Assembly: GCA_039110515.1 (NCBI GenBank)
Contig: JBCCFY010000010.1
Location: forward strand, 50,202-114,201
DNA from: Pseudomonadota bacterium
GTDB lineage: Bacteria > Pseudomonadota > Gammaproteobacteria > Arenicellales > Arenicellaceae
Length of the DNA stretch: 64,000 nucleotides
Reading direction: 5' to 3'
The position numbers and the translations under genes are program-made. The notes beneath the pieces were generated by a model. It saw only the letters and a program-made list of their open reading frames with translations, ran no database searches and was not told the DNA's origin. Shown piece after piece: positions 38,738 to 57,874 of the stretch; positions within the stretch are counted from its first letter, which is position 1; each line of letters begins with the position of its first letter.

Positions 38738-40282
38738 TCAGCCTCGCCCGATTGCTCCAAGGGATAAGTGAATGGGGAACTTCTCACGGATAGCCCGATC
38801 TATGTCATCGGAAATATGGTTGGGGAAATAGCTGGCGAGAATTTCATCGCGCTTTGCTATGGCCTTCTCCAGCAACACTGGTTTGCCTGCTTCTTCCCAG
38901 TCGTTAGGGCTGCTGCGATCACCAAACTCGGGGTAGATGTATTCGCTTTGCATTACAGCCAGCGTTTCATCCGATCCGAGATAGTGGCCAAGGCCGCCTT
39001 CGCACACTGCTTTGAGGTTCTCAAAGGCAAGCGTGCGTTCATTCACTTCAATACCCCGAGTAATGCGTGCGGTGGCACCCAACACGTCGTTATCGAGTAA
39101 TAGGCTTTCCGGGCTGGCACCCAGCAAGCTGGCGTACATGCCTGCAGACTCATAAACGATATTGGCACCGGAAAGTGCCGCGGGCAGAACCGTGTAGGCA
39201 CGCTCTGCGCCGCCCTGATAATCTGGAAACTTGGAATCGGTCATGCCGCAGGCGGTACCAAAAGGTAAATCAAAATGCAGACCCATCTGCGCGCAGGCTG
39301 AAGAGATCAACCCTTGCTCAGGTGACCCACCACTCATCGCGCCCGTACGCAGGTCGGATACAAACGGCCAGGCACCCAGGATGGCAGGAGCACCCGCTTC
39401 GATGGCATTCACGTAAGTCAGCCCACCCAAAATCTCGGCCCAGGCCTGGGATACGCCACCTGCCAAGCATGCTGGCGTGGTGGCACCAGCTTGACCGGCG
39501 GATAGTAGCAATACCGGCATCCCACCTTCAACCGCGTAGCGCAGGCAGTCAAGCGCATCCTCAGCAAACTTCATGGGCGGCACCACGAAGCAGTTCGACA
39601 TACTTACGAAGGGACGCGCACGCCAGGCTTCTTCGCTGCCGGCAATCATGTGCAACATCTCGAGCGAAGATTCCAGGTGGGTGTAATGAGTCCACGCTGA
39701 GCCGACATGTTTGGTGGTGCCCATCACTGAGCAATACAGCGTGTTGAGGTCCATCTCGTGATTGTCTTCAATATCGCGGATCACGCACATGCGCTGGAAC
39801 ATGTGAATATGTTCGCAGGTATCGGTGATCCTCGCCATGTTGTATAAATCCATCGACTCAGAATCGCGGTAGCTGTTGGCCTCCGCATCGGCCACCATTA
39901 CCGCCGCGCCGGCAGTGGAGAAATGCACTTTGGAACCACTTAAGTGCAGATCATGCTTTGGATCCTGGCCGTGTAGAGTCAGATCGCGTTGGCACTTTGC
40001 TAATGTGTCTTCGATTACTTTGCGAGGAAACCGCAAGCGACCGTCATCACCCATTATGGCGCCCACAGAGGTGCAGGCTTCAATGCAATGCGGCGTGGCA
40101 TCATTAAAGCCAACTTCTTCCAGGATGCGATAGATATTTGCTTCGATCTGCGCAATGCCGTCGTCGCTTAAAGGTTTATAGGCACCGCCCAGCTCGCCTG
40201 GGTGAACAGGCTTGATATCCTTCTCTAAGGGAGCACTGCGGAGCGCTTTTCGCGCTTGTCGACCACCCATTCTTCTGGCCAT
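38738..40282 (-). CDS. mttB: Trimethylamine methyltransferase family (MttB), non-pyrrolysine; MtgB-like
   Basis: AGATTPACLAG, DLRTGAMSGGSPE and MTDSK.PD.Q motifs; no in-frame amber codon. Confidence 0.9.
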   Translation of the reverse strand: MARRMGGRQARKALRSAPLEKDIKPVHPGELGGAYKPLSDDGIAQIEANIYRILEEVGFNDATPHCIEACTSVGAIMGDDGRLRFPRKVIEDTLAKCQRDLTLHGQDPKHDLHLSGSKVHFSTAGAAVMVADAEANSYRDSESMDLYNMARITDTCEHIHMFQRMCVIRDIEDNHEMDLNTLYCSVMGTTKHVGSAWTHYTHLESSLEMLHMIAGSEEAWRARPFVSMSNCFVVPPMKFAEDALDCLRYAVEGGMPVLLLSAGQAGATTPACLAGGVSQAWAEILGGLTYVNAIEAGAPAILGAWPFVSDLRTGAMSGGSPEQGLISSACAQMGLHFDLPFGTACGMTDSKFPDYQGGAERAYTVLPAALSGANIVYESAGMYASLLGASPESLLLDNDVLGATARITRGIEVNERTLAFENLKAVCEGGLGHYLGSDETLAVMQSEYIYPEFGDRSSPNDWEEAGKPVLLEKAIAKRDEILASYFPNHISDDIDRAIREKFPIHLSLGAIGRG

Positions 40283-40433: not shown

Positions 40434-41342
40434 GTGACCACAATGCAACGCCTACTGCCCCCTTTAACCAGTTTGAAAACGTTCGAAGCGGCCGCCCGAC
40501 ACTTAAGTTTTACTAATGCAGCAACTGAGCTGTGTGTGACTCAGGCGGCCATCAGCCATCAGATCAAAGCGATTGAAGAATACCTGGGTGCGGCATTGTT
40601 TATTCGCCACCCTCGGAGGCTGGAACTAACTGCCACCGGAGAGAAACTTTTGCCGGTTGTGCGCGAATCATTGGATGCGATTAGCCGCACGGTAGCCGAC
40701 ATCCGCAACGAACGAGAATTCTCACCGCTGTGCATCGCCGTGGCGCCTTCGTTTGCAGTGCATTGGCTGATGCCGCGGCTGGAAGAATTGTTTGAAAAAC
40801 ACCCAGGCATCGAGCTATCACTCAAACACTGGAACGGGATGGTGGATTTCACCAAAGAGTCTTTCGACATCGCTATCAGTTATGGCCCAAACCAGTGGCG
40901 CGGCTTGCAGTCGCAGGCAGTGCTCAATATAGATTTTTTCCCGGTGTGCGCGCCGGAGCTGTTACAAGGCAAACACAAGTTGGAGACTGTGGACGACCTG
41001 CAGCACTTCAACTTGCTGCACGATGCTGATCATCAAACCTGGGCTAAATGGCTGCAACTGGCGGGCGCGAATCAAGTAGACCCGAATCGAGGCACCATCG
41101 TGGACGATACCAATGTGCTTATTAAGGCTGCACGCGATGGCCTGGGAGTGGCGATGTGCTCAATGCCGTTCGTGAAGGAGTTGCTGGCAACCGGAAAATT
41201 GGTGCAGCCCTTCGAATTGTCGTTGTCATCCGACAAGGCATACTACGCTGTTTGCCCCAAGGAGCATCTGTCCAGGAAAGAGGTAAGTACATTTTGGTCG
41301 TGGTTGACAGAGCAATCGCGTCGACAGGAAGAATCTCTCTAG
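40434..41342 (+). CDS. LysR-family regulator, GcvA-like
   Basis: LPPLTSLKTFEAAARHLSFT.AA.EL.VTQAAISHQIK HTH; WLMPRL; divergent from mttB. Confidence 0.93.
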   Translation: MTTMQRLLPPLTSLKTFEAAARHLSFTNAATELCVTQAAISHQIKAIEEYLGAALFIRHPRRLELTATGEKLLPVVRESLDAISRTVADIRNEREFSPLCIAVAPSFAVHWLMPRLEELFEKHPGIELSLKHWNGMVDFTKESFDIAISYGPNQWRGLQSQAVLNIDFFPVCAPELLQGKHKLETVDDLQHFNLLHDADHQTWAKWLQLAGANQVDPNRGTIVDDTNVLIKAARDGLGVAMCSMPFVKELLATGKLVQPFELSLSSDKAYYAVCPKEHLSRKEVSTFWSWLTEQSRRQEESL

Positions 41343-41889
41343 CAAAGAATGATAGGAGCTTGTGACCGGGGGGCGATACCTGAAGAACAATACAGTCGCC
41401 GATAGGAAATCGGATAATACCAATTCGTATCCTCAGCCAGGAAATCGACCCGCCCACGAGCCTGGGCATTGCAAAAACGAATCCTGAGTTCCGGACTGTT
41501 AAATTGGTCGGGTTGCGGGTCTACCCGATCAAACTTCATAGTCAACAGTCTCATCCTCACGTGCAATGAGTGCCCAGGAAGCTCCAAGCACGATACGCCC
41601 ACTACAATGTATCCAGGAGGAGCGCGCGTTTATATTTAAAATCAGCCTGAATTCTCGCTCGGTTCTATCATCCTGATTTTAAGTCCGTGACTGCCGTGAG
41701 ATGTAGATAAACGGCAATGCGATGAAATATTTGTTCCTAATCTCTTGTCGATTCACGAAAGTATGAAGGGTGACATCATTTGAGTGAGAGAATTCCACAA
41801 TCGCCGGCACTATCTTACTAATTGACAATTCTCCGGCCTAAGGCGACTAGCTATCGGGCCGAGATAATACAGTGCTTGGGGAGCAGGAT

Positions 41890-42447
41890 ATGAACGAGGA
41901 TAATTTTTGGAGTTCATGGATGGGGCCGTGGGTCGGCGCGATTACCGTGTTAATCGCCATCTTGCTGTTATGGGCTGCCCATAAGTTTGGTGAAGCCTAC
42001 AAAAATCAAATCACCTCCTTGGATAGCGCGACAATAGAATCGCTAAACCGCATCAATGCTATGAAAAAGTGCATTGAAACCTCCACGACTGCAGTGAAAG
42101 CCTATGTGGCGATCGATGATATTGCCTACTCCCGCGAGGACCTGGTGCTAAGGCGAGAGATAGAGGACCAACTACTCGCAGTAATTCAGACTGATGCATC
42201 TAGCGACCGTGCAGACACCAAAAAACAAGATGCCTATGTAAGAGAGTTGCAAGGGATCGAACAAAAACTGCAGAAATTGAAAAGTGCAATGGATTTGGCC
42301 GACAGCCCCACGAACTCTGATAACAAAGGCGGTTCGAGCGAGATAGCCGAATTTTTTCCACGGCAGACGATCAAACAGCGATTAAAAACGGGAATTGAAA
42401 CCTGTATTAGAGCAGCAAATCCAGAACCGCAGGAGAAGAAATCATGA
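41890..42447 (+). CDS. Hypothetical protein with a single N-terminal TM anchor and helical body
   Basis: ATG at 41890 with SD AGGA (ORF open from 41872); one hydrophobic helix; ATGA overlap with the next gene. Confidence 0.7.
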   Translation: MNEDNFWSSWMGPWVGAITVLIAILLLWAAHKFGEAYKNQITSLDSATIESLNRINAMKKCIETSTTAVKAYVAIDDIAYSREDLVLRREIEDQLLAVIQTDASSDRADTKKQDAYVRELQGIEQKLQKLKSAMDLADSPTNSDNKGGSSEIAEFFPRQTIKQRLKTGIETCIRAANPEPQEKKS

Positions 42448-44282
42448 AACCAGTATCAAGCATGATTAAAAAAACTTTGATGTTCGCAACGGCGGTTGTG
42501 CTCTCGGCGTGTGCTGGTAAAGATATAATTCACCAGCCCGACCAGGCAGAAAGAACAGGTGTACCTTACAGGCTGCCAAAAACGTTTATTGACATAGAGC
42601 TAGGGCACAAAACACTTGGCTCGCAGTCACATATCGTTCTCAAGAGCTCGACCAGGCATGTGCCGGACCATTCGGAGCTCTATCTACTTGATCCGACATC
42701 AGAAAGTTGGTTAACAACTACCGACCATCATTTTGTGGTGGATCAAGGATTGATCAAAAGCGTTAATACCACGGACATTGCTGAAGGCGGCGCTGTATTA
42801 GAAAACGTGACAACCAGCTTAATCAATCTGGGTAAGAGCGCCACCTTCGTTGCACAGAGTGCCAAGTCCAAGGCTTTTAACACCGTACAGAGCTTTCCTA
42901 CCCCAGAAGAGTTACTTCAGATTAGCCAGATGCTTACGCTCTCGGGTACCAGTATAACGATTGATCCTAATGCCGTGCCTACAGTTCGGGTACCAGTCCC
43001 CGCTACTAATGGAATCTTGTACTTAACTTTTAATGAATCGTATTCACCGCCAGCTTCGGTTCCATACACTCCTTTGCCAGCCTGGCCTGTCGTCAATAAC
43101 CTTGATACCTCGAAGATTGAAACCCAATGTGATGCCGCAGGCGAAATTAATGCGAGTCGTGAGTTGGCTCTTTTTCCAAGTGCGATAATCGCGCTTGATC
43201 ACTCCCATTTAGGCGGTCGACCGCCCGTGAGCAGTTCATCTGCGCCTGCGGGTAAGCTTGCGAGCTCGAACAATACAGTTTACGGCTTGTTTACAAAAGC
43301 ATTGCGCGAATTTGACCTAACGCTGCACCTCTATGTGGATTTGTGGAAACTGAGGGAGTACAGAATTGAGAGAATGGTTCAAGACTTCGAACGTAAGGTA
43401 CAGGATTTACATGAGGCCTTGGACAGTAAGGATAATAGTAATATCGAGCGTCGCGGATCCCAGGCATGTCGATCAAATCAGGCGGAGCATGCCCAACTAA
43501 ATCAACAAGTGGCCGCATTGACTAATATGGCACTGTTGGGCGGCGATAGGCTCAATAAGGAGTTTATTGACGCCAGGCTAAAAATATTGAGAGCAGATTT
43601 AGCTCGCTTGGATAATGACGTAAATTCGTGTGAAAACCGAAAACAAAATGTCTGGAAAAACATCGCATCTATCAGGGACCAGTGCAGGAGAGTAGCAGCG
43701 CAATCGAGAAATATTCTGCAAACAATCGAATGGCGTCCGCAACAGGATTATCTGATGGCGCGAAATGATCAGATTTTGCAGGTAGCTGGCGACGAGGTCG
43801 TTTCGGTGCCATTGACGCGCGCCACCATGGGTAAGACCACTAACGATCTAAAATTTGTCAGCGGGTTTCTAACCGATTTTCACCAGGTTAAACCATCCGA
43901 AGGTAAGGTGTTGACGGAATCCATTGTGAATTCCACCACCAGCCTGTATGACGCTCTTGTGGCCATTGCACAGATACCAGCAGAGGCGCTGGGACTAAAA
44001 CTAGATGAAATCAATGCGCAGCAATCATTGACCGACGGGCAAATAATCCTTAACAACAAACGGGATCTCTTGCAGGGAAAAAGGCATGAAATTCAGAGCA
44101 TTTTACTGGATGCGCATCTTGAGGCGGTACGAGCAGATCCAGCCGCGCACCTGGAGTTGCTGAACAATATTGGGCTAGATATCGTTCAGTCTGGTGCTGA
44201 CAGCGAAGAAGCAGCAGATGCCGGCGGCGATAGCGAAGCTACGGAAACGTCGACAGAAGATACCCCTACTGAGGGAGAGTAG
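42444..44282 (+). CDS. Hypothetical lipoprotein (DUF4831-like motifs, central coiled coil, acidic tail)
   Basis: Lipobox LSAC; GVPYRLPKT and LxFxSGxLT...KPSE motifs; family assignment from memory. Confidence 0.7.
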   Translation: MKPVSSMIKKTLMFATAVVLSACAGKDIIHQPDQAERTGVPYRLPKTFIDIELGHKTLGSQSHIVLKSSTRHVPDHSELYLLDPTSESWLTTTDHHFVVDQGLIKSVNTTDIAEGGAVLENVTTSLINLGKSATFVAQSAKSKAFNTVQSFPTPEELLQISQMLTLSGTSITIDPNAVPTVRVPVPATNGILYLTFNESYSPPASVPYTPLPAWPVVNNLDTSKIETQCDAAGEINASRELALFPSAIIALDHSHLGGRPPVSSSSAPAGKLASSNNTVYGLFTKALREFDLTLHLYVDLWKLREYRIERMVQDFERKVQDLHEALDSKDNSNIERRGSQACRSNQAEHAQLNQQVAALTNMALLGGDRLNKEFIDARLKILRADLARLDNDVNSCENRKQNVWKNIASIRDQCRRVAAQSRNILQTIEWRPQQDYLMARNDQILQVAGDEVVSVPLTRATMGKTTNDLKFVSGFLTDFHQVKPSEGKVLTESIVNSTTSLYDALVAIAQIPAEALGLKLDEINAQQSLTDGQIILNNKRDLLQGKRHEIQSILLDAHLEAVRADPAAHLELLNNIGLDIVQSGADSEEAADAGGDSEATETSTEDTPTEGE

Positions 44283-44285
44283 CTT

Positions 44286-45050
44286 GTGAACCCAAAAATT
44301 AAGATCACCGCAGGCCCAATGTTGTGCAAAAGAGCCGAACCAAGCGTGCATTTTGGAGGTCCGCCGAACGGGCTTGTTCGCAAGGAGCGACCTGTACGAC
44401 CGGGCAACAGTATAAGTATAGCCGGTGGCGAGGCCGGGACCGCTACCGTGATGGTAAAGCAACTAGGTGCAAATGATGGAGCAACCTATTTACTCAGTTG
44501 TGAGCACGTACTGAAACCAAATAACCAAGAGGCGGCATCGATTCTGCAGCCAGCCTTGCAGGATGCAACCGGCACTGGGAATTTGAATCGAATTGGTAAC
44601 AAAGTCACGGTTGCTGGTTTGAGCGAATTCAAGAGCAATCAGATTGATGCCGCAATTGTTCAACTAAATAGTGGTATTAAGGGGCAAAACCTCACATCGG
44701 AAGGCAACTGGCCAATATTTTCAGTTGACCGAAATTATGATGATGGCATGCCGGTGACTATGGTTGGGCGCAGTTCTGGTCAAGTAGAGGGCATGATTGT
44801 CAATGCCTCAGTAGATCAGGAAATGGACTACAGCGAACTCGGATGGCTGAAGCCAATATACTTTTCTGGCATCGCTCAGTGCGACTATCCATGTCAGCCA
44901 GGTGACAGTGGAGCCCCAGTCTTGAATTCAGCGACGGGTAGTTTGGTTGGTATTCATATGGCAGGCGGGTCCGATGAGGTTGGTAACTCCTTTGGATTTT
45001 TTTGCCCGGCGTGGCAGGTGTTTGACCAGTTGCATCTACAACTAATATAG
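44286..45050 (+). CDS. Trypsin-like serine protease (Nal1-like), no signal peptide
   Basis: Catalytic triad motifs LSCEHVL (H), IDAAIV (D) and QPGDSGAPV (S). Confidence 0.85.
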   Translation: MNPKIKITAGPMLCKRAEPSVHFGGPPNGLVRKERPVRPGNSISIAGGEAGTATVMVKQLGANDGATYLLSCEHVLKPNNQEAASILQPALQDATGTGNLNRIGNKVTVAGLSEFKSNQIDAAIVQLNSGIKGQNLTSEGNWPIFSVDRNYDDGMPVTMVGRSSGQVEGMIVNASVDQEMDYSELGWLKPIYFSGIAQCDYPCQPGDSGAPVLNSATGSLVGIHMAGGSDEVGNSFGFFCPAWQVFDQLHLQLI

Positions 45051-45067
45051 CTCAGGAGAACTTTATT

Positions 45068-45790
45068 ATGGAATTAGAAACTATTTCTGCGGCGCTGAAC
45101 CAAAATGCTGGCGCCTATGTTGAGTTCTTGATCAAGAGCCTGGCTGGTATTGCCTTGGTAGGCACGCTGTCAATGGCATTAGTTCAAGCCTTCAAGGGCA
45201 TCCCCTTTCTTCCTTTTAGAGAAAAGTTCTTTCAACAACGAACGGAAAAATTTCTGAGAGATCTTTCCAAGGATAATAGTTGGCACGAGATTGAAGAAGT
45301 TATATACCGTTATGGAGCCGGATCTAAAAAAGCCTTTTATAAACAGTCTTTGGAAGAAATCGCCCAAGGCATGGTGGCAGCAAAAAACATAGCTCTAGCT
45401 CGACCCTCTAAAGCAGAGCTAACCAACTTTTTAAGGTTTTTTGAAGATGTTGGTCGGCCCAAATATAACTCGGAGGAGTGCAGCTTAGTGACTGCGCTAC
45501 TGGAACTAATCGCTATTTCAGAGCCAAGCCATGAACAAAAAGAGAACATCAAGTCAATAAACTCCTACTTGAGTTTAATGATTGGCGGTTATATAGACGG
45601 TTTTAAAGTGACTGTTAATCAGCGATGGACATTTTGGCAGCAGTTTGCAGCTATTGTCTTAAGTGTTTGTTTTGTTCTTATGTGGGTTCCCATTGAAGAG
45701 CCCTTATTTCAGTTAATCTACGGTATTCTAGGCGGCATGCTTGCACCATTTGTGCATGATTTAATCAAAAAACTGAAACCGCTCATCTGA
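45068..45790 (+). CDS. Hypothetical three-TM membrane protein
   Basis: SD AGGAG; one N-terminal TM, a soluble middle region, and two C-terminal TMs ending GGMLAPFVHDL. Confidence 0.75.
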   Translation: MELETISAALNQNAGAYVEFLIKSLAGIALVGTLSMALVQAFKGIPFLPFREKFFQQRTEKFLRDLSKDNSWHEIEEVIYRYGAGSKKAFYKQSLEEIAQGMVAAKNIALARPSKAELTNFLRFFEDVGRPKYNSEECSLVTALLELIAISEPSHEQKENIKSINSYLSLMIGGYIDGFKVTVNQRWTFWQQFAAIVLSVCFVLMWVPIEEPLFQLIYGILGGMLAPFVHDLIKKLKPLI

Positions 45791-45983: not shown

Positions 45984-47000
45984 GTGCATATGACTGCACG
46001 TAATACCAGAGAATCCAACCGCTCACGTTGGCACTTTCATCCAGATGTAGACAGTCGCATGGCGCCCTATTACGATTGGCCGCCCAATTTGCGCGCTACC
46101 ACAAAAAGATTGATTAGAGGCTGGAGTGTGTTCGATGTGCGTATTTATGTGCTCCTGCTAGCTATTGCCTCTTGGTTGGTTCTTGGCTTCCCTGAAACTG
46201 AAACCAGCGAATTCTCGATAGGCTGGATCACGCAAATCTGGATGCGCTGGTTTATCACCATCAGTCTGGTAGCAGGTGGGCTGCACCTGTATTTCTATAC
46301 ATTCAGAAATCAGGGTGATATCGAGCGATACGAGCTCAAGGATTTAGCACACGATTCAGGCAAGTTCCATTTCAGAAACCAGGTTTGGGACAATATGTTT
46401 TGGGTGTTAACTGGCACCGTTGGGTTTCTCACCTTTTATGAGGTCATCATCATATGGGCTTATGCAAATGGAGTTGCCCCGCAGATATCATTTAGTGAAA
46501 ACCCTATATTGTTTGTTGCCCTTATACTGATTACTCCAGGCTGGACAGCCTTCCATTTTTACTGGCAGCACCGCGCGTTTCATATTCCGGCCTTGTATCG
46601 CCTGGGACATGATTGGCACCATAAAAACGTTACCGTGGGGCCGTGGTCCGGCGCTGCGGTGCATCCGGTAGAAAACCTGGTTTGGTTCAGCGCTGTTTTA
46701 ATTCTACTTATCGTCCCATCACACCCAATCCATGCACTCTTTTTAATGCACTTGCAGGTGATTACCGCCATCACCACGCATGTGGGTTATGACAGTTTAA
46801 AGCTGAGAAAACAACATCAATTTCAGCTGGGCGACTTTTTCCATCAGCTGCACCACCGGTACTACGATTGTAACTACGGCACCTCTTCTGGGCCCTGGGA
46901 CAGGTGGTTTGGCACCTATCATGATGGAACAGAGGAAGGGAATCGACGCATACAAAAGCATCGCGAACGAATCAGAGGCAAGCACCAACACTCAGAATGA
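45984..47000 (+). CDS. Sterol desaturase / fatty acid hydroxylase family protein
   Basis: His boxes QHRAFH, HDWHH and HQLHH, plus DCNYG and WDRWFGT motifs. Confidence 0.88.
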   Translation: MHMTARNTRESNRSRWHFHPDVDSRMAPYYDWPPNLRATTKRLIRGWSVFDVRIYVLLLAIASWLVLGFPETETSEFSIGWITQIWMRWFITISLVAGGLHLYFYTFRNQGDIERYELKDLAHDSGKFHFRNQVWDNMFWVLTGTVGFLTFYEVIIIWAYANGVAPQISFSENPILFVALILITPGWTAFHFYWQHRAFHIPALYRLGHDWHHKNVTVGPWSGAAVHPVENLVWFSAVLILLIVPSHPIHALFLMHLQVITAITTHVGYDSLKLRKQHQFQLGDFFHQLHHRYYDCNYGTSSGPWDRWFGTYHDGTEEGNRRIQKHRERIRGKHQHSE

Positions 47001-47010
47001 GTGATCGGCG

Positions 47011-48420
47011 ATGGTGTACTATAAAGCCATGAGAGGTCGCCGTTTATCACTACTCGTTTTGATGCTGAGTTTGCTCTGCGCTCCTGCTGCGCAGGCGGGG
47101 CTACTATCGGCACTCACCAAGGCGGTTAAAAAAGTAGAGGCGCCAGATGGAAGCCTGGCCGCAATCCCCGATATCAAATGGCAGGCTCTTGGTGTAAACG
47201 CCATCGATGGAGTGCCACCAACGGTAGTGCGCGGCAAATTGAACGCAGACAATCAGTGGGTGTTGCAGGACAGTGCGGGTAAAGTGGTCGATGATATCGC
47301 GTCAGTGAGCAACCCCGCTATCGTGATAGACCAGGCGTATCTGCCGACACGACTCTCTGAGTTGAACCGCCTGCCAACGGATGCGCCCATATTGCTGCGC
47401 TCGGATGAAGCGCTGTTTCGCTTGGAGAACAACAACGGTTGGGTATTGAAGTCTGGCCAGGCTGGCATTCGAGTGACCACGGCTCCCGATACAAAAACTG
47501 CACTGCATCATTTCTCTAGACCCTGGTCTAATGGCCCGGTTCGCATTGTTGGCCTGAAAGATCAGGCTGCAACATCAATGAGCCTAAGGCGCGGCGTTGA
47601 TGTGAAAACCATCATGGAAATGCCATCGCAACTGCGTGGACAGACCCTGGCGCTGGCAGGGCCAATAAAAAACAATCGGATCTCAGTGGCGGGCAAGCAA
47701 GTTTCAATCTCCGATCTACGCCGGATCGCCGACGAAAATGACATCAGCCTGGTGATTATGGAAAGCCAGCGCAAAGTGTCACCCAAAGCGCTCCTGAAAC
47801 GGCTGGATGACAACATGGTGGATGGCGTGCCACAAAACACCGGGCAGTTTCTCGCTCGCCTGAATCAACCAGGCGCGGAATCGAGTTTCACCATCAGCCC
47901 AACCTCAAAGAATCAGGTTGTGATTCGCCGCCAAGCGCAGGCCAGCAATGACGCGGCAACAGAGGCGAGCCAACAAACCTCCACCAAGATGGAAACAGTT
48001 ATTGGCGTGCATACCGCCATACGCATAATGCTATATCGACCCGGTGAGGAGCGCCAACAAGAACTTGAAGACCTGGTATTTGGGTGGCTACCAAGCTGGG
48101 TGTTAGGTTACATGGTGGTGTCCCTTGTGGCTGGAGCGGTGTTTGCTGGTACTACATCAGGTGTGTTTTATAAATATTGGCCAACTAGTGGCACTCAGAA
48201 TCGCTGGTTGCGAGGTACTGAGATCGGGTTCAGCGTGGTGGTATTTTTCATATTCCTTTTGTTTCTAGGCTTGCCAGTGGCGATTGCTAAGGTTATTTGG
48301 ATGATATTGAAGGGAATATGGTGGGTGTTGGCTGGAGTAGTGGTTATAGTTATGGGATTGGGTGCGATGATTTCGAAGTTGTTTCGTCGGGGTGACGCTG
48401 CTGATGAGCGAGTGCATTGA
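47011..48420 (+). CDS. Hypothetical exported protein with C-terminal TM helices
   Basis: 469-aa ORF; signal peptide (probable ATG at 47029, ending AQA); about three C-terminal hydrophobic helices. Confidence 0.7.
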   Translation: MVYYKAMRGRRLSLLVLMLSLLCAPAAQAGLLSALTKAVKKVEAPDGSLAAIPDIKWQALGVNAIDGVPPTVVRGKLNADNQWVLQDSAGKVVDDIASVSNPAIVIDQAYLPTRLSELNRLPTDAPILLRSDEALFRLENNNGWVLKSGQAGIRVTTAPDTKTALHHFSRPWSNGPVRIVGLKDQAATSMSLRRGVDVKTIMEMPSQLRGQTLALAGPIKNNRISVAGKQVSISDLRRIADENDISLVIMESQRKVSPKALLKRLDDNMVDGVPQNTGQFLARLNQPGAESSFTISPTSKNQVVIRRQAQASNDAATEASQQTSTKMETVIGVHTAIRIMLYRPGEERQQELEDLVFGWLPSWVLGYMVVSLVAGAVFAGTTSGVFYKYWPTSGTQNRWLRGTEIGFSVVVFFIFLLFLGLPVAIAKVIWMILKGIWWVLAGVVVIVMGLGAMISKLFRRGDAADERVH

Positions 48421-50820: not shown

Positions 50821-51681
50821 ATGGATCGAAAAATATCAACCGTCAGTGATGCGCTAAAAATAGTAAATGAACTGCATAATCAACGACCGGCTCCTTCGGG
50901 TGTTCTTTACCGGGGTGTGGGTAGTTACAAATATAATTTAGAGCCTTCACTGTCGCGGTATCTCGCGCCCTCAAAACCGCTTCGGAACATGCGAGGCGAC
51001 TCGTTCAAGGAAGAGAGAATAAAATGGAAGGAGGTGTTCTCTAAAACTGAAAAAGGTCTTATTGAGGATTTTAAAAAATTGGCATGGCAGATGTTGTCCT
51101 ATAAACCAAAGAATGACTGGGAATGGATAGCAGTTGCTCAACATCATGGTGTGCCAACTAGACTCTTGGACTGGACAACCAATTTGTTGATAGGACTTTG
51201 GTTTGCCACAGATAGTTCGGGGGTGCATGCAAATATTGATGGTGGGTTATGGGTCTATACGCCTTTTGGGAGTCGTGATGGAGATACAGAGGACATCGGT
51301 GATACTGAGTGGCTTCTTGATCAAATGACCTCCGATCCAACGCATGAGCAATATATTGGGCCAACAGAGGTGAATCGCACACGCATCTACGTTCCAAATA
51401 ATCTCGATCCACGAATACAAATGCAATCTGGTGTATTCACGGCACACCAACTAATGCCGAACGATGGTTTTTTCGACCTGGTACCGCTAAACAAAAATGG
51501 CAGAGAACGCTTAAAGGTAAGCCGTATTCGAGTACCCAAGCGGGCTAAGGCCCAGATAAGGACCCAACTCGCGCGTGATTTTGGCTTGGACTTAACGAAG
51601 GTTTTCCCAGACGTTGATGGCGTTGCGCTCTCACTTAAGGCGGCTTGGGAGCCTACGGTCAAGAAAATTAAGAAAAAATAA
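50821..51681 (+). CDS. FRG-domain protein 1
   Basis: LYRG, AQHHGVPTRLLDWT, RIQMQSGVFT and VFPDVDG motifs; SD GAGGAGG. Confidence 0.9.
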   Translation: MDRKISTVSDALKIVNELHNQRPAPSGVLYRGVGSYKYNLEPSLSRYLAPSKPLRNMRGDSFKEERIKWKEVFSKTEKGLIEDFKKLAWQMLSYKPKNDWEWIAVAQHHGVPTRLLDWTTNLLIGLWFATDSSGVHANIDGGLWVYTPFGSRDGDTEDIGDTEWLLDQMTSDPTHEQYIGPTEVNRTRIYVPNNLDPRIQMQSGVFTAHQLMPNDGFFDLVPLNKNGRERLKVSRIRVPKRAKAQIRTQLARDFGLDLTKVFPDVDGVALSLKAAWEPTVKKIKKK

Positions 51682-51781
51682 GACAATCAAATTTTATGCA
51701 TGCATGACGGCCTCTCCAATTTGGAGATCAACCTCAGGAAGACGCATTAACTCATGAGTATTTACAATCGGGGAGTCAGGT

Positions 51782-52549
51782 ATGGCTAGTGTAGATAAAG
51801 AAAAAAGCTTCCAAGAAATAGAAGTTTCAACTTTTGACGAGCTGAGAGATCTTTTAGAAAACAAAATCCCAGAAATAGAGGACTTCGTCTTCCGTGGTCA
51901 AACAGATAAGAATTGGGATCTCAGTTCTACCCTCGATAGATTAATAAGACACGCGAGGGAAACCGGCGCCAAAACCGCATCAATGGAATCATTTGTGCAC
52001 AGCCACCTGGAAAGTTTCAAATTAGAGATTCGGGGTCGACGTGGTGATAACCCAAGTCAGTTAGAAGAAAATGAATTGTGGGCGTTAGGGCAGCACTATG
52101 GCCTCGCTACCCCACTACTTGATTGGTCATTATCACCCTATATTTCTGCTTTTTTTGCTTTGAGTAGTATCACTGCGGACGATGAAGGTGGAAGAGCCCT
52201 ATGGTGCCTTAATCGTAAAAAAGTAAATCAAATAAATTCTGGATTATCAGATACGCACCGATTGGAGCTTATTGTTCCGGATTCAGATGACAATAAGCGA
52301 TTACTGGGCCAGTCAGGGTTGTTCTCAAAAGGCCCGGTATTAGTGTCCGTGAATGAATGGGTTGATGATAAGACAGGTCCGTCGGCTTCACTAACTTTGA
52401 TAAAAATTGTATTTCCAAACCACCCGGAATTTCGTAAAGCAGCTCTTAAGAAACTGAATCTTATGAATATAAATCACTCAACGTTGTTTCCTGATTTAGA
52501 AGGCGCCAGCCTCCATTGCAATATTGTCGCGGAAGATTATGGCGTATAA
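51782..52549 (+). CDS. FRG-domain protein 2
   Basis: VFRGQ, GQHYGLATPLLDWS, RLLGQSGLF and LFPDLEG motifs. Confidence 0.9.
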   Translation: MASVDKEKSFQEIEVSTFDELRDLLENKIPEIEDFVFRGQTDKNWDLSSTLDRLIRHARETGAKTASMESFVHSHLESFKLEIRGRRGDNPSQLEENELWALGQHYGLATPLLDWSLSPYISAFFALSSITADDEGGRALWCLNRKKVNQINSGLSDTHRLELIVPDSDDNKRLLGQSGLFSKGPVLVSVNEWVDDKTGPSASLTLIKIVFPNHPEFRKAALKKLNLMNINHSTLFPDLEGASLHCNIVAEDYGV

Positions 52550-52923: not shown

Positions 52924-54213
52924 TTGATGAGAGCCGGTCGGAATAGAGTTAAGTTTGTTGCAGAAAGAGTAAATAAGTTTTGCTGTCCTCCCGACAGAGT
53001 AGATGCTCTACTTTGGGATGCAGACGAGAAATCCTTATGTATCAGAGCTCGTAAGGGAGGATCTAGAGCTTACTATTTCCAGAGCCGATATAACGGCAAG
53101 GTTGTGAAGATTAAGATAGGTAACCTATCTGATAAAGCAGTTACCATTAATTTCGCCAGGAAAAAGGCAAGAAAATATCAATCACAAATCGATGAAGGCT
53201 TTGATCCGAGACAGGTGATAGCTCGGCGTGTCAAGGAAGCGAAAGTCGCGAGGGAAAAATCGAACTTGGCAGCAGTGAAGTTTGGAACTTTGTGGGATGA
53301 GTACGTTGATGCAAATAAAGTTCATTGGAGCGATTCTTATGCGCACGATCATGAAAAGGCTATGCGTGCGGGAGGGCGAAAGCGAAAGCGTTCATCTAGG
53401 TTGACTGTCCCTGGTGTTCTTTTTTCACTCAGAAACATCAAGATATCCGATCTCGATTCTGAACTTGTGATTGAATGGGCTCGTACTGAGGTCGTCCATA
53501 GGCCAACTGTCACAGCTAATGGCTATCGAATTTTCAGAGCTGCTCTCAATTGGGCAGCTGGCACACGTAAGTATAAATCTACGGTCAGGCCGGATGAAAT
53601 TTTCAAGAACCGCGAATTAAGAAGACTAATTCATAAGCCTAAGCCACGCAGAGATGTGTTGCTCCAGCAACACTTACCTACATGGTTTAGATCGGTACGA
53701 GAAAGTTGTGACCCGATAGTAGCTTGTTATCTGCAGGGCCTGTTGATAACTGGCGCGCGCCGAGAAGAAATGGCACAACTAAAGTGGGATGATGTCGACC
53801 TAGAATGGGACTCATTGGAAATCAGAGATAAAGTCGACGGGTCTCGGCAAATTCCGCTTACACCTTATTTTAAATTTTTATTGAGTGAGTTACCTCGCTA
53901 CAATGAGTGGGTATTTTATAGCCATTCGTCGCGCAGCGGGCGCATTGTCGACCCGTATCGAGCCCACAAGAGAGCATTAGACGATACGAATCTTCCTCAC
54001 ATCACGCTACATGGATTACGAAGAAGTTTTGGGACTCTTAGTGAATGGGTTGAGTGCCCTGTTGGGGTCGTGGCCCAGATACAAGGACACAAACCAAGCG
54101 CCATTGCGGAGAAACATTACCGTGTAAGGCCGCTCGACCTGTTGTCAGTTTGGCATCGAAAAATTGAAGAGAAAATCCTTGAGTTTGCGAAGATTGATTT
54201 TCCCTCTACCTGA
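52924..54213 (+). CDS. int: Tyrosine recombinase/integrase with an N-terminal arm-binding domain
   Basis: LLWD...L.IR...Y.FQ.R arm domain; catalytic TGARREE, HGLRR, QGH and KHY motifs. Confidence 0.93.
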   Translation: MMRAGRNRVKFVAERVNKFCCPPDRVDALLWDADEKSLCIRARKGGSRAYYFQSRYNGKVVKIKIGNLSDKAVTINFARKKARKYQSQIDEGFDPRQVIARRVKEAKVAREKSNLAAVKFGTLWDEYVDANKVHWSDSYAHDHEKAMRAGGRKRKRSSRLTVPGVLFSLRNIKISDLDSELVIEWARTEVVHRPTVTANGYRIFRAALNWAAGTRKYKSTVRPDEIFKNRELRRLIHKPKPRRDVLLQQHLPTWFRSVRESCDPIVACYLQGLLITGARREEMAQLKWDDVDLEWDSLEIRDKVDGSRQIPLTPYFKFLLSELPRYNEWVFYSHSSRSGRIVDPYRAHKRALDDTNLPHITLHGLRRSFGTLSEWVECPVGVVAQIQGHKPSAIAEKHYRVRPLDLLSVWHRKIEEKILEFAKIDFPST

Positions 54214-55630: not shown

Positions 55631-56425
55631 GTGGAGCCGCCTAAGCCGAAGTGTAGTCACACTTTGATGTTGATCCCAATTTTTGCTCTAAGCAAGAATC
55701 CAGATTTCGAAGTGTTCTCTTGGAACGATCTCGATTCGAAAGTAGAAGTTACACCTAGTAGTTCTGGCAGAGCTACCATTTGGGACAAAGACATTCTCCT
55801 ATTTTGTATGTCGAAGATCGTCAATGATTTGAATGATGGGGTTGTTCCTAGTCGAGTACTCTCTGTAAAAGGATCTGAGATTCTCCGATTCTGTAGTCGT
55901 GGAAGTGGTGGTCAAGATTATAAAAACCTCAGTGATGCACTGGATAGGTTGAGGGGCACATCAATAAAAACAGACATCAAGTCCCGAGACGTAGAATTTT
56001 CTGACGATTTTACGCTTCTCTCACGCGTGTCAAAGATGAAGATTGTTGGTAATGAAAAATCGACAAGAATACGAATAGAGCTTTCTGAGTGGATTTTCAC
56101 GCAAATGCTCGACCAGCACTATGTACTGACTTATGACCCCGGTTATTTCAAAATGACTAGCGCTATACACCGTCGGCTCTACGAAATCTTTAGAAAGCAC
56201 TGCGGTGAGCAACCAAAATTTCTAATTAGGCTTCGTAAGCTCTTTTTTAAAATTGGTAGTAAGGGATCACTGAATGATTTCAAAAAGGTATTGCGAAAAT
56301 CAGCAGACTACTATGACGAAATAAAAGGATTTCATTCTGGAATGGTGGGTCCTTATGAATACCGGTACCATGAAAGCAGGGAGATTATCGAGGTGAGGTT
56401 TCGTAGATGTCTAAGAGGTGAATAA
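55631..56425 (+). CDS. repA: Plasmid replication initiator RepA (RPA family)
   Basis: PIFALSK, GRATIWDKDILLF, GGQDYKNL.DALDRL.GT.I.T and RRLYEI.RKHCG motifs; followed directly by iterons. Confidence 0.88.
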   Translation: MEPPKPKCSHTLMLIPIFALSKNPDFEVFSWNDLDSKVEVTPSSSGRATIWDKDILLFCMSKIVNDLNDGVVPSRVLSVKGSEILRFCSRGSGGQDYKNLSDALDRLRGTSIKTDIKSRDVEFSDDFTLLSRVSKMKIVGNEKSTRIRIELSEWIFTQMLDQHYVLTYDPGYFKMTSAIHRRLYEIFRKHCGEQPKFLIRLRKLFFKIGSKGSLNDFKKVLRKSADYYDEIKGFHSGMVGPYEYRYHESREIIEVRFRRCLRGE

Positions 56426-56833: not shown

Positions 56834-56866
56834 TTGATTTACAAACTAGGATATTTGGAAATCGTC

Positions 56867-57859
56867 TTGGCTAATACTAGAAACATTTTGGCAATGATCC
56901 GTAGTCGAGCCATTGGTGACGATGAGCAATTCTTCTCAATTGCTCTTCAGGTTGCTGCATCCGAGGCCAGGATGGGGCATCGAAGGATAGCTGAAGATAT
57001 TCGTACTGCTGTTGCTGAAGCTAGATCAACACGTCCTCAAAAAGCCTCTGTACCCGTCTCTTTTGCGAAACCGCGGGGGAATCTTGATGGTTTGTTGGAA
57101 CTTCGCGAAGCAAGATTTAGATTACAAGATGTAATTCTTTCAGAAGGACTAAAGAAGAAAATAGACGATCTCGTAAAACAACAAACCAGGCGAGACTGGT
57201 TAAGAGAGCACGGAAAAACACCAAACAAATCTGCCCTTTTAGTCGGACCACCTGGGTCAGGTAAAACTATGTCGGCGGAAGCCATCGCTAATAGACTGAA
57301 GCTCCCATTTTTTGTAATTAGATTAGAGTCTCTCATTACAAAGTTTATGGGAGAAACGGCGGCGCAGCTGCGGTTGGTCTTTGACGAAGTGGAATCTAAG
57401 AGAGGCGTTTACTTGTTCGATGAATTCGATGCTTTGGGAAGTAGACGCGACTCCAACAACGATGTTGCTGAGATGCGAAGAGTTCTCAATTCATTTCTTC
57501 AGTTTATGGAAACATCAAATACTACAGATAGCCTTGTTATTGCAGCGACAAACTTCCCCAACTTACTCGACAACGCATTGTTACGGCGATTTGATTTAGT
57601 CTTAAAGTTTAGTTACCCGAGTGATGAGCAGATCCGACAAATAATTAAGGACAATTTGCGCCCACTTAAGTATCCAAGGCTTGGTTGGAAGCAAATAATT
57701 AAAGACGCCAAGGATTTGAGCCAGTCAGAAATTGCACGTGCAGCGGAAGATGCAGTGAAGATGGCAATTTTAGATGAAAGGGATACACTTAAGACAAATG
57801 ATATCACTAACAGGCTGATAGAAAGAAAAGAGATGAAAGATGCTTTTACTGGAGTTTGA
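56867..57859 (+). CDS. ietA: AAA+ ATPase, IetA-like
   Basis: TTG start giving MANTRN...DDEQFFSIALQVAASEAR; Walker A GPPGSGKT, Walker B LFDEFD, AATN and ALLRRFD motifs. Confidence 0.88.
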   Translation: MANTRNILAMIRSRAIGDDEQFFSIALQVAASEARMGHRRIAEDIRTAVAEARSTRPQKASVPVSFAKPRGNLDGLLELREARFRLQDVILSEGLKKKIDDLVKQQTRRDWLREHGKTPNKSALLVGPPGSGKTMSAEAIANRLKLPFFVIRLESLITKFMGETAAQLRLVFDEVESKRGVYLFDEFDALGSRRDSNNDVAEMRRVLNSFLQFMETSNTTDSLVIAATNFPNLLDNALLRRFDLVLKFSYPSDEQIRQIIKDNLRPLKYPRLGWKQIIKDAKDLSQSEIARAAEDAVKMAILDERDTLKTNDITNRLIERKEMKDAFTGV

Positions 57860-57874
57860 AAATAGGGAATTATT

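What the first reader, a model, noticed from the sequence alone, without database searches (positions are those of the whole stretch)
41890..45790. Uncharacterised four-gene envelope operon: TM anchor + coiled-coil lipoprotein + cytoplasmic trypsin-like protease + 3-TM protein
Seen: tight coupling (ATGA overlap, 3-nt gap, 17-nt gap with SD) and placement at the start of the accessory region leading to the defence islet. The protease has an intact H/D/S triad but no signal peptide, while its partners are membrane-bound or exported. The last gene has a ~140-aa soluble loop between TM1 and a terminal hairpin. Established: several anti-phage and conflict systems pair a trypsin-like protease with a membrane effector activated by cleavage. 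I do not recognise this combination as a named system. Inference: a trans-envelope sensor (lipoprotein plus anchor) signalling to a protease that cleaves a pore-forming or regulatory membrane protein. This is my best candidate for a new system in the window.
Basis: inference. Interest (0 to 1): 0.72.

Follow-up and report, generated by a model that had tools for sequence, protein, structure and literature searches.

The report
Undescribed lipoprotein–protease–membrane protein cassette
Four tightly packed genes (a membrane-anchored helical protein, a large coiled-coil lipoprotein, a signal-less trypsin-fold protease and a three-helix membrane protein) form a real, rare cassette that recurs in the same order in unrelated marine and environmental bacteria, matches no described system, and most likely links the cell envelope to a protease-controlled membrane effector.

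Summary

- **Recurrence:** g2-g3-g4 occur in the same order in 11 distinct loci with unrelated flanks. A TM-plus-helix gene sits upstream wherever upstream DNA exists. Divergence of g2, g3 and g4 is correlated across loci (Spearman 0.69-0.90).
- **Protease:** g3 is a trypsin-fold serine protease with an invariant His/Asp/Ser triad and no room for a signal peptide. Its distant relatives are NAL1/S64-like.
- **Lipoprotein:** g2 keeps its lipobox in every full-length copy. It belongs to a superfamily of at least 826 sequence clusters with no Pfam model. Members of that superfamily are often followed directly by a protease, of serine, metallo or cysteine class.
- **Membrane protein:** g4 reads as N-out, TM1, a cytoplasmic helical domain of about 145 aa, a TM2-TM3 hairpin, and C-in.
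- **No known match:** g1, g2 and g4 hit nothing significant in Pfam, NCBIfam, PADLOC, PHROGs, the PDB or Foldseek.

My best reading (about 0.4) is a conflict system. A periplasmic g1/g2 sensor would license a cytoplasmic protease-effector pair, g3-g4. No function has been tested. The rivals are an envelope-signalling module, a lysis or export cassette, and a toxin-immunity pair.

The parts
41343..41889 (+). 547-nt non-coding stretch upstream of g1; presumed promoter region, not verified
   Evidence: No long ORF lies between the LysR-type gene (40434-41342) and g1. The consensus scan gave only a weak sigma-70-like match at 41321-41350, and the region held fewer matches than shuffled sequence.
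41890..42447 (+). g1: 185-aa bitopic protein with an N-terminal TM helix (about residues 11-29), a non-hydrophobic C-terminal domain read as helical, and two conserved cysteines (C61, C172)
   Evidence: ORF and start context. Hydropathy and cysteine positions. Positional equivalents (128-518 aa, one N-terminal TM) sit upstream of g2 in 9 loci, 8 of them with two or more Cys after the TM and L011 with none. Sequence conservation is low, at 9-24% identity. No Pfam or PHROGs family matched.
42444..44282 (+). g2: 612-aa predicted lipoprotein. It has a beta-rich N-domain (motif G-I/V-P-Y-x-L-P-K ... VPD ... GLL), a 130-aa coiled-coil hairpin, a conserved C-domain (VPLxRAxxGKTxNxLxFxxGxLT ... KPSE), C-terminal helices and an acidic disordered tail
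   Evidence: The lipobox is conserved in all full-length homologs. AlphaFold2 gave mean pLDDT 61.6, with 70-88 in the strands and the hairpin. The profile search found 826 cluster representatives at E<=1e-3. No Pfam, NCBIfam, PADLOC, PHROGs or PDB hit and no significant Foldseek hit.
44286..45050 (+). g3: 254-aa trypsin-fold serine protease with catalytic H74, D121 and S208, and no signal peptide or TM segment
   Evidence: Pfam Trypsin_2 and Trypsin score above their cut-offs. The triad and the motifs RERPxRPG, LLSCEHV, DAAIV, GRSSG and GDSGAP are conserved. Distant relatives carry NAL1_N, Nal1_C or Peptidase_S64. NAL1 is the only PDB family that aligns over most of the catalytic domain, at a non-significant E of 0.12-0.36.
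45068..45790 (+). g4: 240-aa all-helical inner-membrane protein. It has a short acidic N-terminus, TM1 (about 21-39), a helical domain of about 145 aa, a TM2-TM3 hairpin (about 188-233) and a basic C-terminal tail (HDLIKKLKP)
   Evidence: AlphaFold2 gave pLDDT 80.5 and pTM 0.70. Flank charges in all homologs fit an N-out/C-in topology with a cytoplasmic loop. HMM hits lie directly after g3 in 11 loci. No Pfam, PADLOC, PHROGs or PDB hit and no Foldseek match. Comparison with TolQ/ExbB/MotA gave hhalign probability 0.2%.

Best explanation
This is a self-contained four-gene envelope module that moves between genomes and has not been described.

**Shown**
- The genes are inherited and diverge together.
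- g2 carries a conserved lipoprotein signal.
- g3 is an intact trypsin-fold serine protease with no export signal.
- g4 is a helical membrane protein.

**Inferred from sequence**
- g2 is exported and lipid-anchored, probably to the outer membrane, because no Asp follows the lipid-modified Cys.
- g1 is anchored in the inner membrane, and its helical domain with the conserved Cys pair faces the periplasm.
- g3 stays in the cytoplasm.
- g4 exposes a helical domain of about 145 aa to the cytoplasm and holds a conserved TM hairpin in the membrane.

**Proposed mechanism (inference)**
- g1 and g2 form a periplasmic sensor or bridge that reports envelope perturbation, for example phage attachment or genome injection.
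- The signal crosses the membrane through the g1 and g4 TM helices.
- g3 is then licensed to cut the cytoplasmic domain of g4. The likeliest site is the variable, low-confidence loop around residues 127-139.
- The freed C-terminal TM hairpin permeabilises the inner membrane, giving abortive infection.

On this reading, g3-g4 would be a new protease-effector module of the kind shown for Pepco, EACC1 and bacterial gasdermin. The difference is a separate envelope sensor in place of a sensor domain fused to the protease.
For: - **Conserved order:** g2, g3 and g4 lie in the same order in 11 distinct loci (HMM E 1e-28 to 1e-246). A TM-plus-helix gene lies upstream in all 9 loci that include upstream DNA.
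- **Tight spacing:** gaps range from -32 to +68 nt in 8 loci.
- **Unrelated flanks:** neighbouring genes differ in every locus.
- **Co-divergence:** Spearman correlations are 0.74 (g2-g3), 0.90 (g2-g4) and 0.69 (g3-g4).
- **Rare and patchy:** none of 40 relatives has the protease family. One hit was found among 185,579 species genomes using the protease pattern. In the own class, 2 of 400 genomes match the g2 profile, including the window's own genome.
- **Protease:** the catalytic triad is invariant and there is no signal peptide.
- **g4 topology:** in the full-length homologs where the simple scan resolved both helices, the flanks are acidic at the N-terminus and the hairpin turn, and basic after TM1 and before TM2. 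TM1, TM3 and the C-terminal tail are among the best-conserved parts of g4.
- **Conflict-type neighbours within about 5 kb:** HNH in the window, NERD, CHAT-TPR, ParDE plus AEP-TOTE primase and helicase, TIR-WD40-TPR directly upstream.
- **Precedent:** protease-gated activation of adjacent small membrane effectors has been shown experimentally for other families (PMC12642450, read).
Against: - No experiment or transcript data exist. The genome is a marine MAG and no RNA runs were found.
- PADLOC has no model for any component. Neighbours in homologous loci gave only generic PADLOC hits.
- In the wider g2 superfamily, most members stand alone or pair with exported metallo- or cysteine proteases, without g1 or g4. 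One pairs with a signal-less NAL1-like protease without g4 (L049). The lipoprotein therefore need not be a sensor for a cytoplasmic protease.
- The orientation of g1 is ambiguous by charge in several homologs.
- No cleavage site or interaction has been modelled, because no multimer prediction tool was available.
- In this window the cassette lies outside the integrase-bounded element, and two housekeeping-like genes separate it from the defence genes.
Confidence: 0.4

Rival explanations
1. This is an envelope signalling or quality-control module, not a defence system. The lipoprotein would report envelope state across the membrane to a cytoplasmic protease, much as RcsF or NlpE do. The protease would then degrade or process a membrane-bound regulator (g4 or g1) to change gene expression or envelope composition.
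For: - Many members of the g2 superfamily are stand-alone lipoproteins in ordinary contexts.
- In L010 an ECF-type sigma factor gene and a 199-aa gene lie directly upstream on the same strand. L009 has a response regulator and a sigma-54 activator downstream.
- Cassette GC equals flank GC in every locus, so the cassette is not a recent foreign insert.
Against: - No DNA-binding or sigma/anti-sigma domain is present in g1-g4.
- Regulators are not conserved next to the cassette.
- The distribution is very sparse and patchy, and flanks are unrelated, which is unusual for a housekeeping stress pathway.
- The neighbours are rich in conflict-type domains.
Confidence: 0.2
2. This is a lysis or type-10-secretion-like export cassette. 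g4 would act like a holin (three TM helices, N-out/C-in) and let the signal-less enzyme g3 reach the periplasm. g1 would act like an i-spanin (TM anchor plus periplasmic helices with cysteines), and g2 like an outer-membrane lipoprotein partner that completes envelope disruption or protein release.
For: - The composition parallels holin, signal-less enzyme, i-spanin and o-spanin cassettes, including ChiWXYZ-type T10SS (PMC4259817 and PMC10847048, listed; the parallel is my own knowledge).
- The g4 topology matches class I holins by charge bias.
- Conserved Cys pairs in g1 and conserved Cys in g2 fit periplasmic disulfides.
- In the wider g2 family, the adjacent proteases that carry signal peptides come without g4.
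- One g1 homolog gave a non-significant Rz-like spanin hit, E 0.048.
Against: - There are no significant PHROGs hits to holins, spanins or endolysins and no viral structural match for g4.
- g2 is about ten times the size of an o-spanin.
- g3 is not a known peptidoglycan hydrolase family. Its relatives (NAL1, S64, viral 3C-like and nsp4 proteases) are intracellular enzymes.
- g4 carries a 145-aa cytoplasmic domain that holins lack.
- L049 pairs a signal-less NAL1-like protease with a g2-like lipoprotein and has no g4.
- No hits in phage or viral collections.
Confidence: 0.12
3. This is a toxin-immunity or effector pair. g3 would be a protease toxin used against competitors or hosts, g4 its membrane immunity protein encoded directly downstream, and g1/g2 a display or release platform.
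For: - In the wider g2 family the protease downstream of the lipoprotein varies in catalytic class, as effectors do in polymorphic systems.
- g3 and g4 are always adjacent and co-diverge.
Against: - g3 has no trafficking or delivery domain and no signal peptide.
- No secretion-system genes are conserved nearby.
- g4 is as large as the protease and highly conserved, unlike typical fast-evolving immunity proteins.
Confidence: 0.08

Closest known systems
Protease-effector modules of anti-phage defence: Pepco/Trypco, EACC1 and bacterial gasdermin with their adjacent trypsin- or caspase-like proteases (Evans et al. 2025 preprint, PMC12642450; Kaur et al. 2020, PMC7159879)
   Same: A trypsin-fold protease is encoded next to a conserved non-enzymatic protein that could act on the membrane. 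The two are always adjacent and co-diverge. Distribution is patchy, and neighbours include CHAT, TIR and TPR proteins.
   Different: - g4 gives no Pfam family hit at E<=0.1 other than a chance BenE match; I assume from memory, without checking the library, that Pfam holds Trypco, EACC1 and gasdermin models.
- g4 is an integral 3-TM helical protein, not a soluble pro-toxin.
- The protease is not fused to a STAND or other sensor domain.
- Two extra envelope proteins, g1 and g2, are constant partners.
- Cleavage and toxicity are untested.
Phage lysis cassettes and type 10 secretion systems (holin, endolysin or endopeptidase, i-spanin, o-spanin; e.g. Serratia ChiWXYZ, PMC4259817)
   Same: Four small-operon components with matching topologies: a 3-TM N-out/C-in membrane protein, a signal-less enzyme, a type II membrane protein with periplasmic helices and cysteines, and a lipoprotein.
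   Different: No sequence or fold homology to any holin, spanin or endolysin family. The lipoprotein is 600-900 aa and has folded domains. The enzyme is a trypsin-fold protease, not a peptidoglycan hydrolase. The gene order differs.
Envelope stress sensors built on lipoproteins (RcsF-IgaA, NlpE-CpxA) and lipoprotein-protease pairs (NlpI-Prc, LbcA-CtpA); from my own knowledge
   Same: An outer-membrane lipoprotein is functionally coupled to inner-membrane proteins or to a protease.
   Different: There is no homology. Those proteases are periplasmic and those systems are conserved core genes. This cassette is rare, mobile, and has a cytoplasmic-type protease.
TolQ/ExbB/MotA stator subunits, including Zorya ZorA
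   Same: The membrane topology of g4 is the same: N-out, TM1, a large cytoplasmic loop, then a TM2-TM3 hairpin. TolQ, MotA and PomA appear among the non-significant Foldseek hits.
   Different: No PF01618 hit. The profile-profile comparison with the genome's own TolQ, ExbB and MotA-like proteins gave probability 0.2%. No TM segment found in g1 of any of the seven homologs contains an Asp, unlike TolR, ExbD or MotB-type partners.
Periplasmic adaptor proteins (HlyD, EmrA, AcrA)
   Same: g2 is a predicted lipoprotein in which a long antiparallel coiled-coil hairpin of variable length is inserted between beta-rich segments drawn from the N- and C-terminal halves. EmrA and HlyD are among the top Foldseek hits.
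   Different: The hits are not significant (E>0.05, TM-score 0.09-0.22) and are driven by the hairpin alone. There is no HlyD-family Pfam hit. No transporter or outer-membrane factor gene lies nearby.

Membership tests
Trypsin-fold serine peptidases (clan PA; Pfam Trypsin_2 PF13365, Trypsin PF00089) | Profile match above the curated cut-off | tested here: met
   g3 scores 45.6 bits on PF13365 (cut-off 27.6) and 26.2 bits on PF00089 (cut-off 20.6).
Trypsin-fold serine peptidases (clan PA) | His, Asp and Ser catalytic residues in that order, conserved in homologs | tested here: met
   H74 (LLSCEHV), D121 (DAAIV) and S208 (GDSGAP) are invariant in 8 sequences.
NAL1 / peptidase S64-like intracellular proteases | Match to the NAL1_N, Nal1_C or Peptidase_S64 profiles | tested here: inconclusive
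   g3 itself does not hit these profiles. Its distant relatives P0017, P0018 and P0021 and the L049 protease do, weakly. NAL1 chains align over g3 profile positions 39-209 at E 0.12-0.36.
Bacterial lipoproteins (Lgt/LspA substrates) | N-terminal signal peptide ending in a lipobox [LVI][ASTVI][GAS]C | tested here: met
   The window g2 has ...AVVLSAC. Equivalent lipoboxes occur in L003, L005, L007, L009, L010, L011, L031 and L034, and in at least 107 of 149 superfamily representatives under a strict pattern. Lipidation itself cannot be tested here.
Known anti-phage systems (PADLOC-DB 2.0) | Any component matches a system model | tested here: not met
   g1, g2 and g4 give no hit. g3 gives only weak protease-domain hits, RT-Protease_XI at E 0.004 and LmuA at E 0.014.
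Protease-effector modules (Pepco/Trypco, EACC1, gasdermin) | The effector protein belongs to one of the described effector families | tested here: not met
   No significant Pfam family for g4 or nine of its homologs at E<=0.01. No PDB sequence or fold match.
Protease-effector modules (Pepco/Trypco, EACC1, gasdermin) | The protease cleaves the adjacent effector, which then kills the cell | not testable with these tools
   This needs co-expression, immunoblots and toxicity assays.
Phage lysis cassette / type 10 secretion system | Homology to holin, endolysin and spanin families | tested here: not met
   PHROGs gave no significant lysis-category hit for g1, g2 or g4 or for their homologs; the best was Rz-like spanin at E 0.048 for one g1 homolog. 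BFVD fold search for g4 found nothing at E<=0.001.
TolQ/ExbB/MotA proton-channel subunits (PF01618) | Profile similarity over the TM2-TM3 region | tested here: not met
   No Pfam hit. hhalign of the g4 alignment against six MotA_ExbB proteins from the same genome gave probability 0.2%.
Periplasmic adaptor proteins (HlyD/AcrA/EmrA) | Sequence or fold match to the lipoyl, beta-barrel and hairpin architecture | tested here: not met
   No Pfam hit in g2 or in 10 superfamily members. Foldseek gave EmrA at E 0.052 and HlyD at E 0.076, with TM-scores of 0.22 or less, on a model of pLDDT 61.6.

The most novel reading that the evidence does not exclude
This would be the first immune module in which an outer-membrane lipoprotein and an inner-membrane anchor form a trans-envelope sensor of phage attack. 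The sensor would license a free-standing cytoplasmic NAL1-like serine protease to cleave a new kind of integral-membrane pro-effector (g4), releasing a pore-forming TM hairpin. The wider lipoprotein superfamily of at least 826 clusters, paired with serine, metallo or cysteine proteases, would then be an unrecognised class of envelope-associated protease partners.
Probability: 0.2. Interest if true: 0.85.

Novelty: categorically new. Interest (0 to 1): 0.62.

Why it matters
Three of the four proteins define families with no Pfam, NCBIfam, PADLOC, PHROGs or PDB relative, yet they are kept together as a unit across unrelated bacteria.

If the proposed mechanism holds, it would extend the protease-gated effector logic recently shown for Pepco, EACC1 and gasdermin. 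The extension would be an integral-membrane effector and a sensor located in the periplasm or outer membrane. It would give a concrete system for asking how bacteria detect phage at the envelope, before or during genome entry.

Independently of that, the work uncovers a large unannotated lipoprotein superfamily that is repeatedly encoded next to proteases of different catalytic classes. This is a testable lead on how envelope proteolysis is organised.

Tried and rejected
- **Word-based homolog search for g2 and g4** found almost nothing. Homologs came instead from neighbourhoods of protease homologs and from full HMMER searches.
- **Locus search with the g2 and g4 alignments** failed because no conserved 7-10-column stretch exists.
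- **Viral contigs, phage records and plasmid records** gave no relatives.
- **Metagenome scan with the protease alignment** returned only distant NAL1-like proteases without g2 or g4. I excluded these from the system.
- **TolQ/ExbB/MotA homology of g4** is rejected.
- **Periplasmic-adaptor or colicin-like fold for g2** is not supported, since Foldseek was non-significant.
- **Holin or spanin homology** is not supported.
- **Synteny test for an insertion site** failed. Genomes of the same GTDB genus are too distant: the left-flank gene is absent from all 24, and the right-flank gene is at most 58% identical.
- **Transcript evidence** is unavailable. Only the source marine metagenome holds the sequence.
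- **A conserved disulfide in g3**, as evidence for export, is rejected because the C-terminal Cys is absent in L034.
- **Promoter and terminator scans** were uninformative.
- **Literature searches** found no description of this gene combination.

Full report
**What is in the window.** Four co-directional ORFs occupy 41890-45790 on the + strand.
- g1 (41890-42447, 185 aa) ends in a TGA that overlaps the ATG of g2 as ATGA.
- g2 (42444-44282, 612 aa) ends in a TAG, and the GTG start of g3 follows 3 nt later, with GAGGGAGAG just upstream.
- g3 (44286-45050, 254 aa) is followed after 17 nt, including AGGAG, by g4 (45068-45790, 240 aa).
- A 547-nt non-coding stretch precedes g1, and a gap of about 195 nt follows g4.
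- Consensus promoter and terminator scans were uninformative.

**The individual proteins.**
- **g3** is a trypsin-fold serine protease.
  - It scores above the curated cut-offs for Pfam Trypsin_2 and Trypsin.
  - H74, D121 and S208 are invariant in eight homologs.
  - Its reading frame opens only 3 nt after the g2 stop and has no hydrophobic segment, so a signal peptide is excluded.
  - More distant relatives carry NAL1_N, Nal1_C or Peptidase_S64 signatures.
  - NAL1 is the only solved family that aligns over most of the catalytic domain, though not significantly. These relatives are intracellular enzymes.
- **g2** begins with a typical lipoprotein signal (…AVVLSAC).
  - Every full-length homolog keeps a lipobox cysteine.
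  - No Asp follows the cysteine, which by the enterobacterial Lol rule suggests outer-membrane sorting. This is my inference.
  - AlphaFold2 on a 10-sequence alignment gave a moderate model (pLDDT 61.6; 70-88 in the ordered parts).
  - In the model, long beta-strands from the N-terminal region (40-113, 283-298) and the C-terminal region (436-482) flank a 130-residue antiparallel coiled-coil hairpin (300-429). Helices and an acidic disordered tail follow.
  - The hairpin is far longer in L010, whose g2 is about 300 aa larger overall, and is absent in short relatives.
- **g4** was modelled with better confidence (pLDDT 80.5) and is all-helical.
  - In the full-length homologs where the simple scan resolved both helices, the N-terminus and the hairpin turn are acidic, and the flanks after TM1 and before TM2 are basic.
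  - That gives an N-out/C-in topology with a cytoplasmic domain of about 145 aa.
  - TM1, TM3 and the tail (GGxxAPFxHDLxKKxKP) are among the best-conserved parts of the protein.
- **g1** has one N-terminal TM helix and a poorly conserved C-terminal domain that I read as helical. In most homologs that domain keeps two cysteines, one shortly after the TM and one near the C-terminus. This hints at a periplasmic, disulfide-stapled hairpin, which is inference.

**Is it a system?** Yes.
- I looked up the contigs that encode protease homologs and, later, g2 homologs. Profile HMMs then confirmed g2-g3-g4 in the same order in 11 distinct loci. These are the window, L003/L004, L005, L006, L007/L008, L009, L010 (GCA_028285415.1), L011, L012 (an uncultured Kangiellaceae MAG), L031 and L034.
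- Wherever upstream DNA is present (9 loci), a gene for an N-terminal-TM helical protein sits directly before g2.
- Intergenic distances range from -32 to +68 nt.
- Flanking genes are different in every locus.
- Pairwise divergence of g2, g3 and g4 across loci is strongly correlated (Spearman 0.69-0.90), so the genes evolve as one unit.
- The cassette is rare.
  - The protease family is absent from 40 relatives.
  - The protease pattern gave one hit among 185,579 species genomes.
  - The g2 profile hit 2 of 400 genomes in the own class, including the window's own genome.
- Cassette GC matches local GC everywhere.

**A wider family behind g2.**
- A full HMMER search of 1.84 billion cluster representatives with the g2 profile found 826 proteins at E<=1e-3, 135 at <=1e-10 and 38 at <=1e-30.
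- Most hits are 260-700-aa lipoproteins that share the N-domain motif (G-x-x-Y-x-L-P-K … VPD … GLL) and the C-domain motif (… F-x-x-G-x-L-T … P-S-E …).
- None of ten members tested has a Pfam family.
- In genome samples the superfamily occurs in about 2% of genomes: 7 of 401 and 9 of 381.
- I examined 16 contexts outside the cassette clade.
  - In four of them the gene directly downstream encodes a protease, and in L068 an S1 protease gene lies about 440 nt beyond a disrupted g2-like gene. The catalytic classes differ:
    - astacin-like with a signal peptide (L033);
    - M10/M12-like with a signal peptide (L046);
    - a MOA-type cysteine-protease domain (P0117 contig);
    - NAL1_N plus trypsin without a signal peptide (L049);
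    - an S1 'TAAHC' protease (L068).
  - Another ten stand alone, and in L047 the next gene (310 aa) matched no family.
- The lipoprotein-protease link is therefore general. The four-gene form with g1 and g4 is one specialised branch.

**Comparison with known systems.**
- g1, g2 and g4 have no significant match in any library searched:
  - Pfam;
  - NCBIfam;
  - PADLOC;
  - PHROGs;
  - PDB sequences;
  - Foldseek against the PDB (g2 and g4 models only);
  - Foldseek against BFVD (g4 model only).
- TolQ, MotA and CorA appeared among the non-significant fold hits for g4 and share its topology. A profile-profile test against this genome's own MotA_ExbB proteins gave 0.2% probability, so this is an analogy only.
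- EmrA and HlyD hits for g2 are driven by the hairpin and are not significant.
- The four-part composition resembles a holin, enzyme, i-spanin, o-spanin cassette, but no homology supports that.
- Literature searches found no paper describing this combination.
- The nearest concept in the papers I read (PMC12642450; PMC7159879) is the protease-effector module. In it, a defence protease cleaves an adjacent small protein (Pepco/Trypco, EACC1, gasdermin) that then forms membrane pores.

**Context.**
- In the window, two unrelated genes follow the cassette: a fatty-acid-hydroxylase-like gene and a 469-aa membrane protein.
- Further downstream lie an HNH endonuclease, two FRG/PDC-S15 genes, an integrase, RepA and IetAS.
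- In homologous loci the neighbours within a few kb include CHAT-TPR giants (L005, L010), a TIR-WD40-TPR giant directly upstream (L011), a NERD nuclease (L003), ParDE plus an AEP-TOTE primase and helicase (L007), and a NucA-type endonuclease (L009).
- This looks like conflict-gene neighbourhoods, but the evidence is domain-level and has no control set. A PADLOC scan of 53 neighbour proteins gave only generic hits.

**Interpretation.**
- The best-supported statement is structural. g1 and g2 are envelope (periplasm-facing) proteins. g3 and the large domain of g4 are cytoplasmic. All four are inherited together.
- My preferred mechanism (confidence about 0.4) runs in three steps.
  - First, g1/g2 sense envelope perturbation.
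  - Second, the signal passes through the conserved TM helices.
  - Third, g3 cleaves g4 (or g1) to unleash a membrane-active fragment, causing abortive infection.
- All three steps are inference.
- The rivals are an envelope signalling or quality-control module (0.2), a lysis or export cassette in which g4 lets g3 cross the membrane (0.12) and a toxin-immunity pair (0.08). The remainder is left open.
- The export rival gains some weight from one observation: the adjacent proteases that carry signal peptides come without g4.
- It loses weight from three others: L049, the intracellular character of the g3 lineage, and the lack of any homology to lysis proteins.

**Verdict.** This is a real, conserved and, as far as these tools and searches show, undescribed gene system. 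It is built from three unannotated protein families and a divergent trypsin-fold protease. Its function is unknown and untested. The defence reading is plausible but rests on architecture and neighbourhood alone.

Noticed in passing
window 56834-60358: There is an IetA/IetS pair. The AAA ATPase matches PADLOC IetA at E 6e-71, and the S8 subtilase matches IetS at E 6e-35. It lies downstream of an integrase (52924-54213) and a RepA replication initiator (55631-56425).
   Followed up: partly
window 50821-52549: Two adjacent, divergent FRG-domain genes match PADLOC candidate system PDC-S15 (E 2.8e-54 and 1.2e-78). An HNH endonuclease gene at 48766-49605 matches a PADLOC HNH model (E 2.7e-25).
   Followed up: partly
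window 45984-48420: A fatty-acid-hydroxylase-family membrane protein (338 aa) is followed 10 nt later by a 469-aa protein with an N-terminal signal-like segment, several C-terminal TM helices and no family hit. The hydroxylase has a 43%-identical paralog on contig C13 and 58%-identical homologs in two genus relatives.
   Followed up: partly
G000:C16:30917-31510 (L002): The same genome holds a second, distant trypsin-fold protease gene (about 322-324 aa, 30% identical to g3, with an N-terminal extension like NAL1-type relatives). No g2-like or g4-like gene lies next to it.
   Followed up: partly
L018 3278-6097: A soil metagenome contig has a lipoprotein (281 aa), a 158-aa protein, a 136-aa TM protein and a 347-aa NAL1-like protease in a row. 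This may be an analogous arrangement, but the lipoprotein does not match the g2 profile.
   Followed up: no
L033 283-2680; L046 6128-8480; contig of P0117: Shorter members of the g2 lipoprotein superfamily are directly followed by an astacin-like metalloprotease with a signal peptide, an M10/M12-like metalloprotease, or a MOA-type (Agglutinin_C) cysteine-protease domain. This suggests a general lipoprotein-protease partnership.
   Followed up: partly
L010 176-4602; L005 1-2315; L011 1568-5170: Giant CHAT-TPR proteins (L005, L010) or a TIR-TPR-WD40 protein (L011) lie upstream of the cassette on the same strand. In L010 an ECF-type sigma factor gene and a 199-aa gene sit between the giant protein and g1.
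   Followed up: no
window 38738-40282 (- strand): The 514-aa gene on the left flank has no homolog at E<=1e-50 in any of 24 genomes of the same GTDB genus. The whole neighbourhood, not only the cassette, is therefore variable in this lineage.
   Followed up: partly
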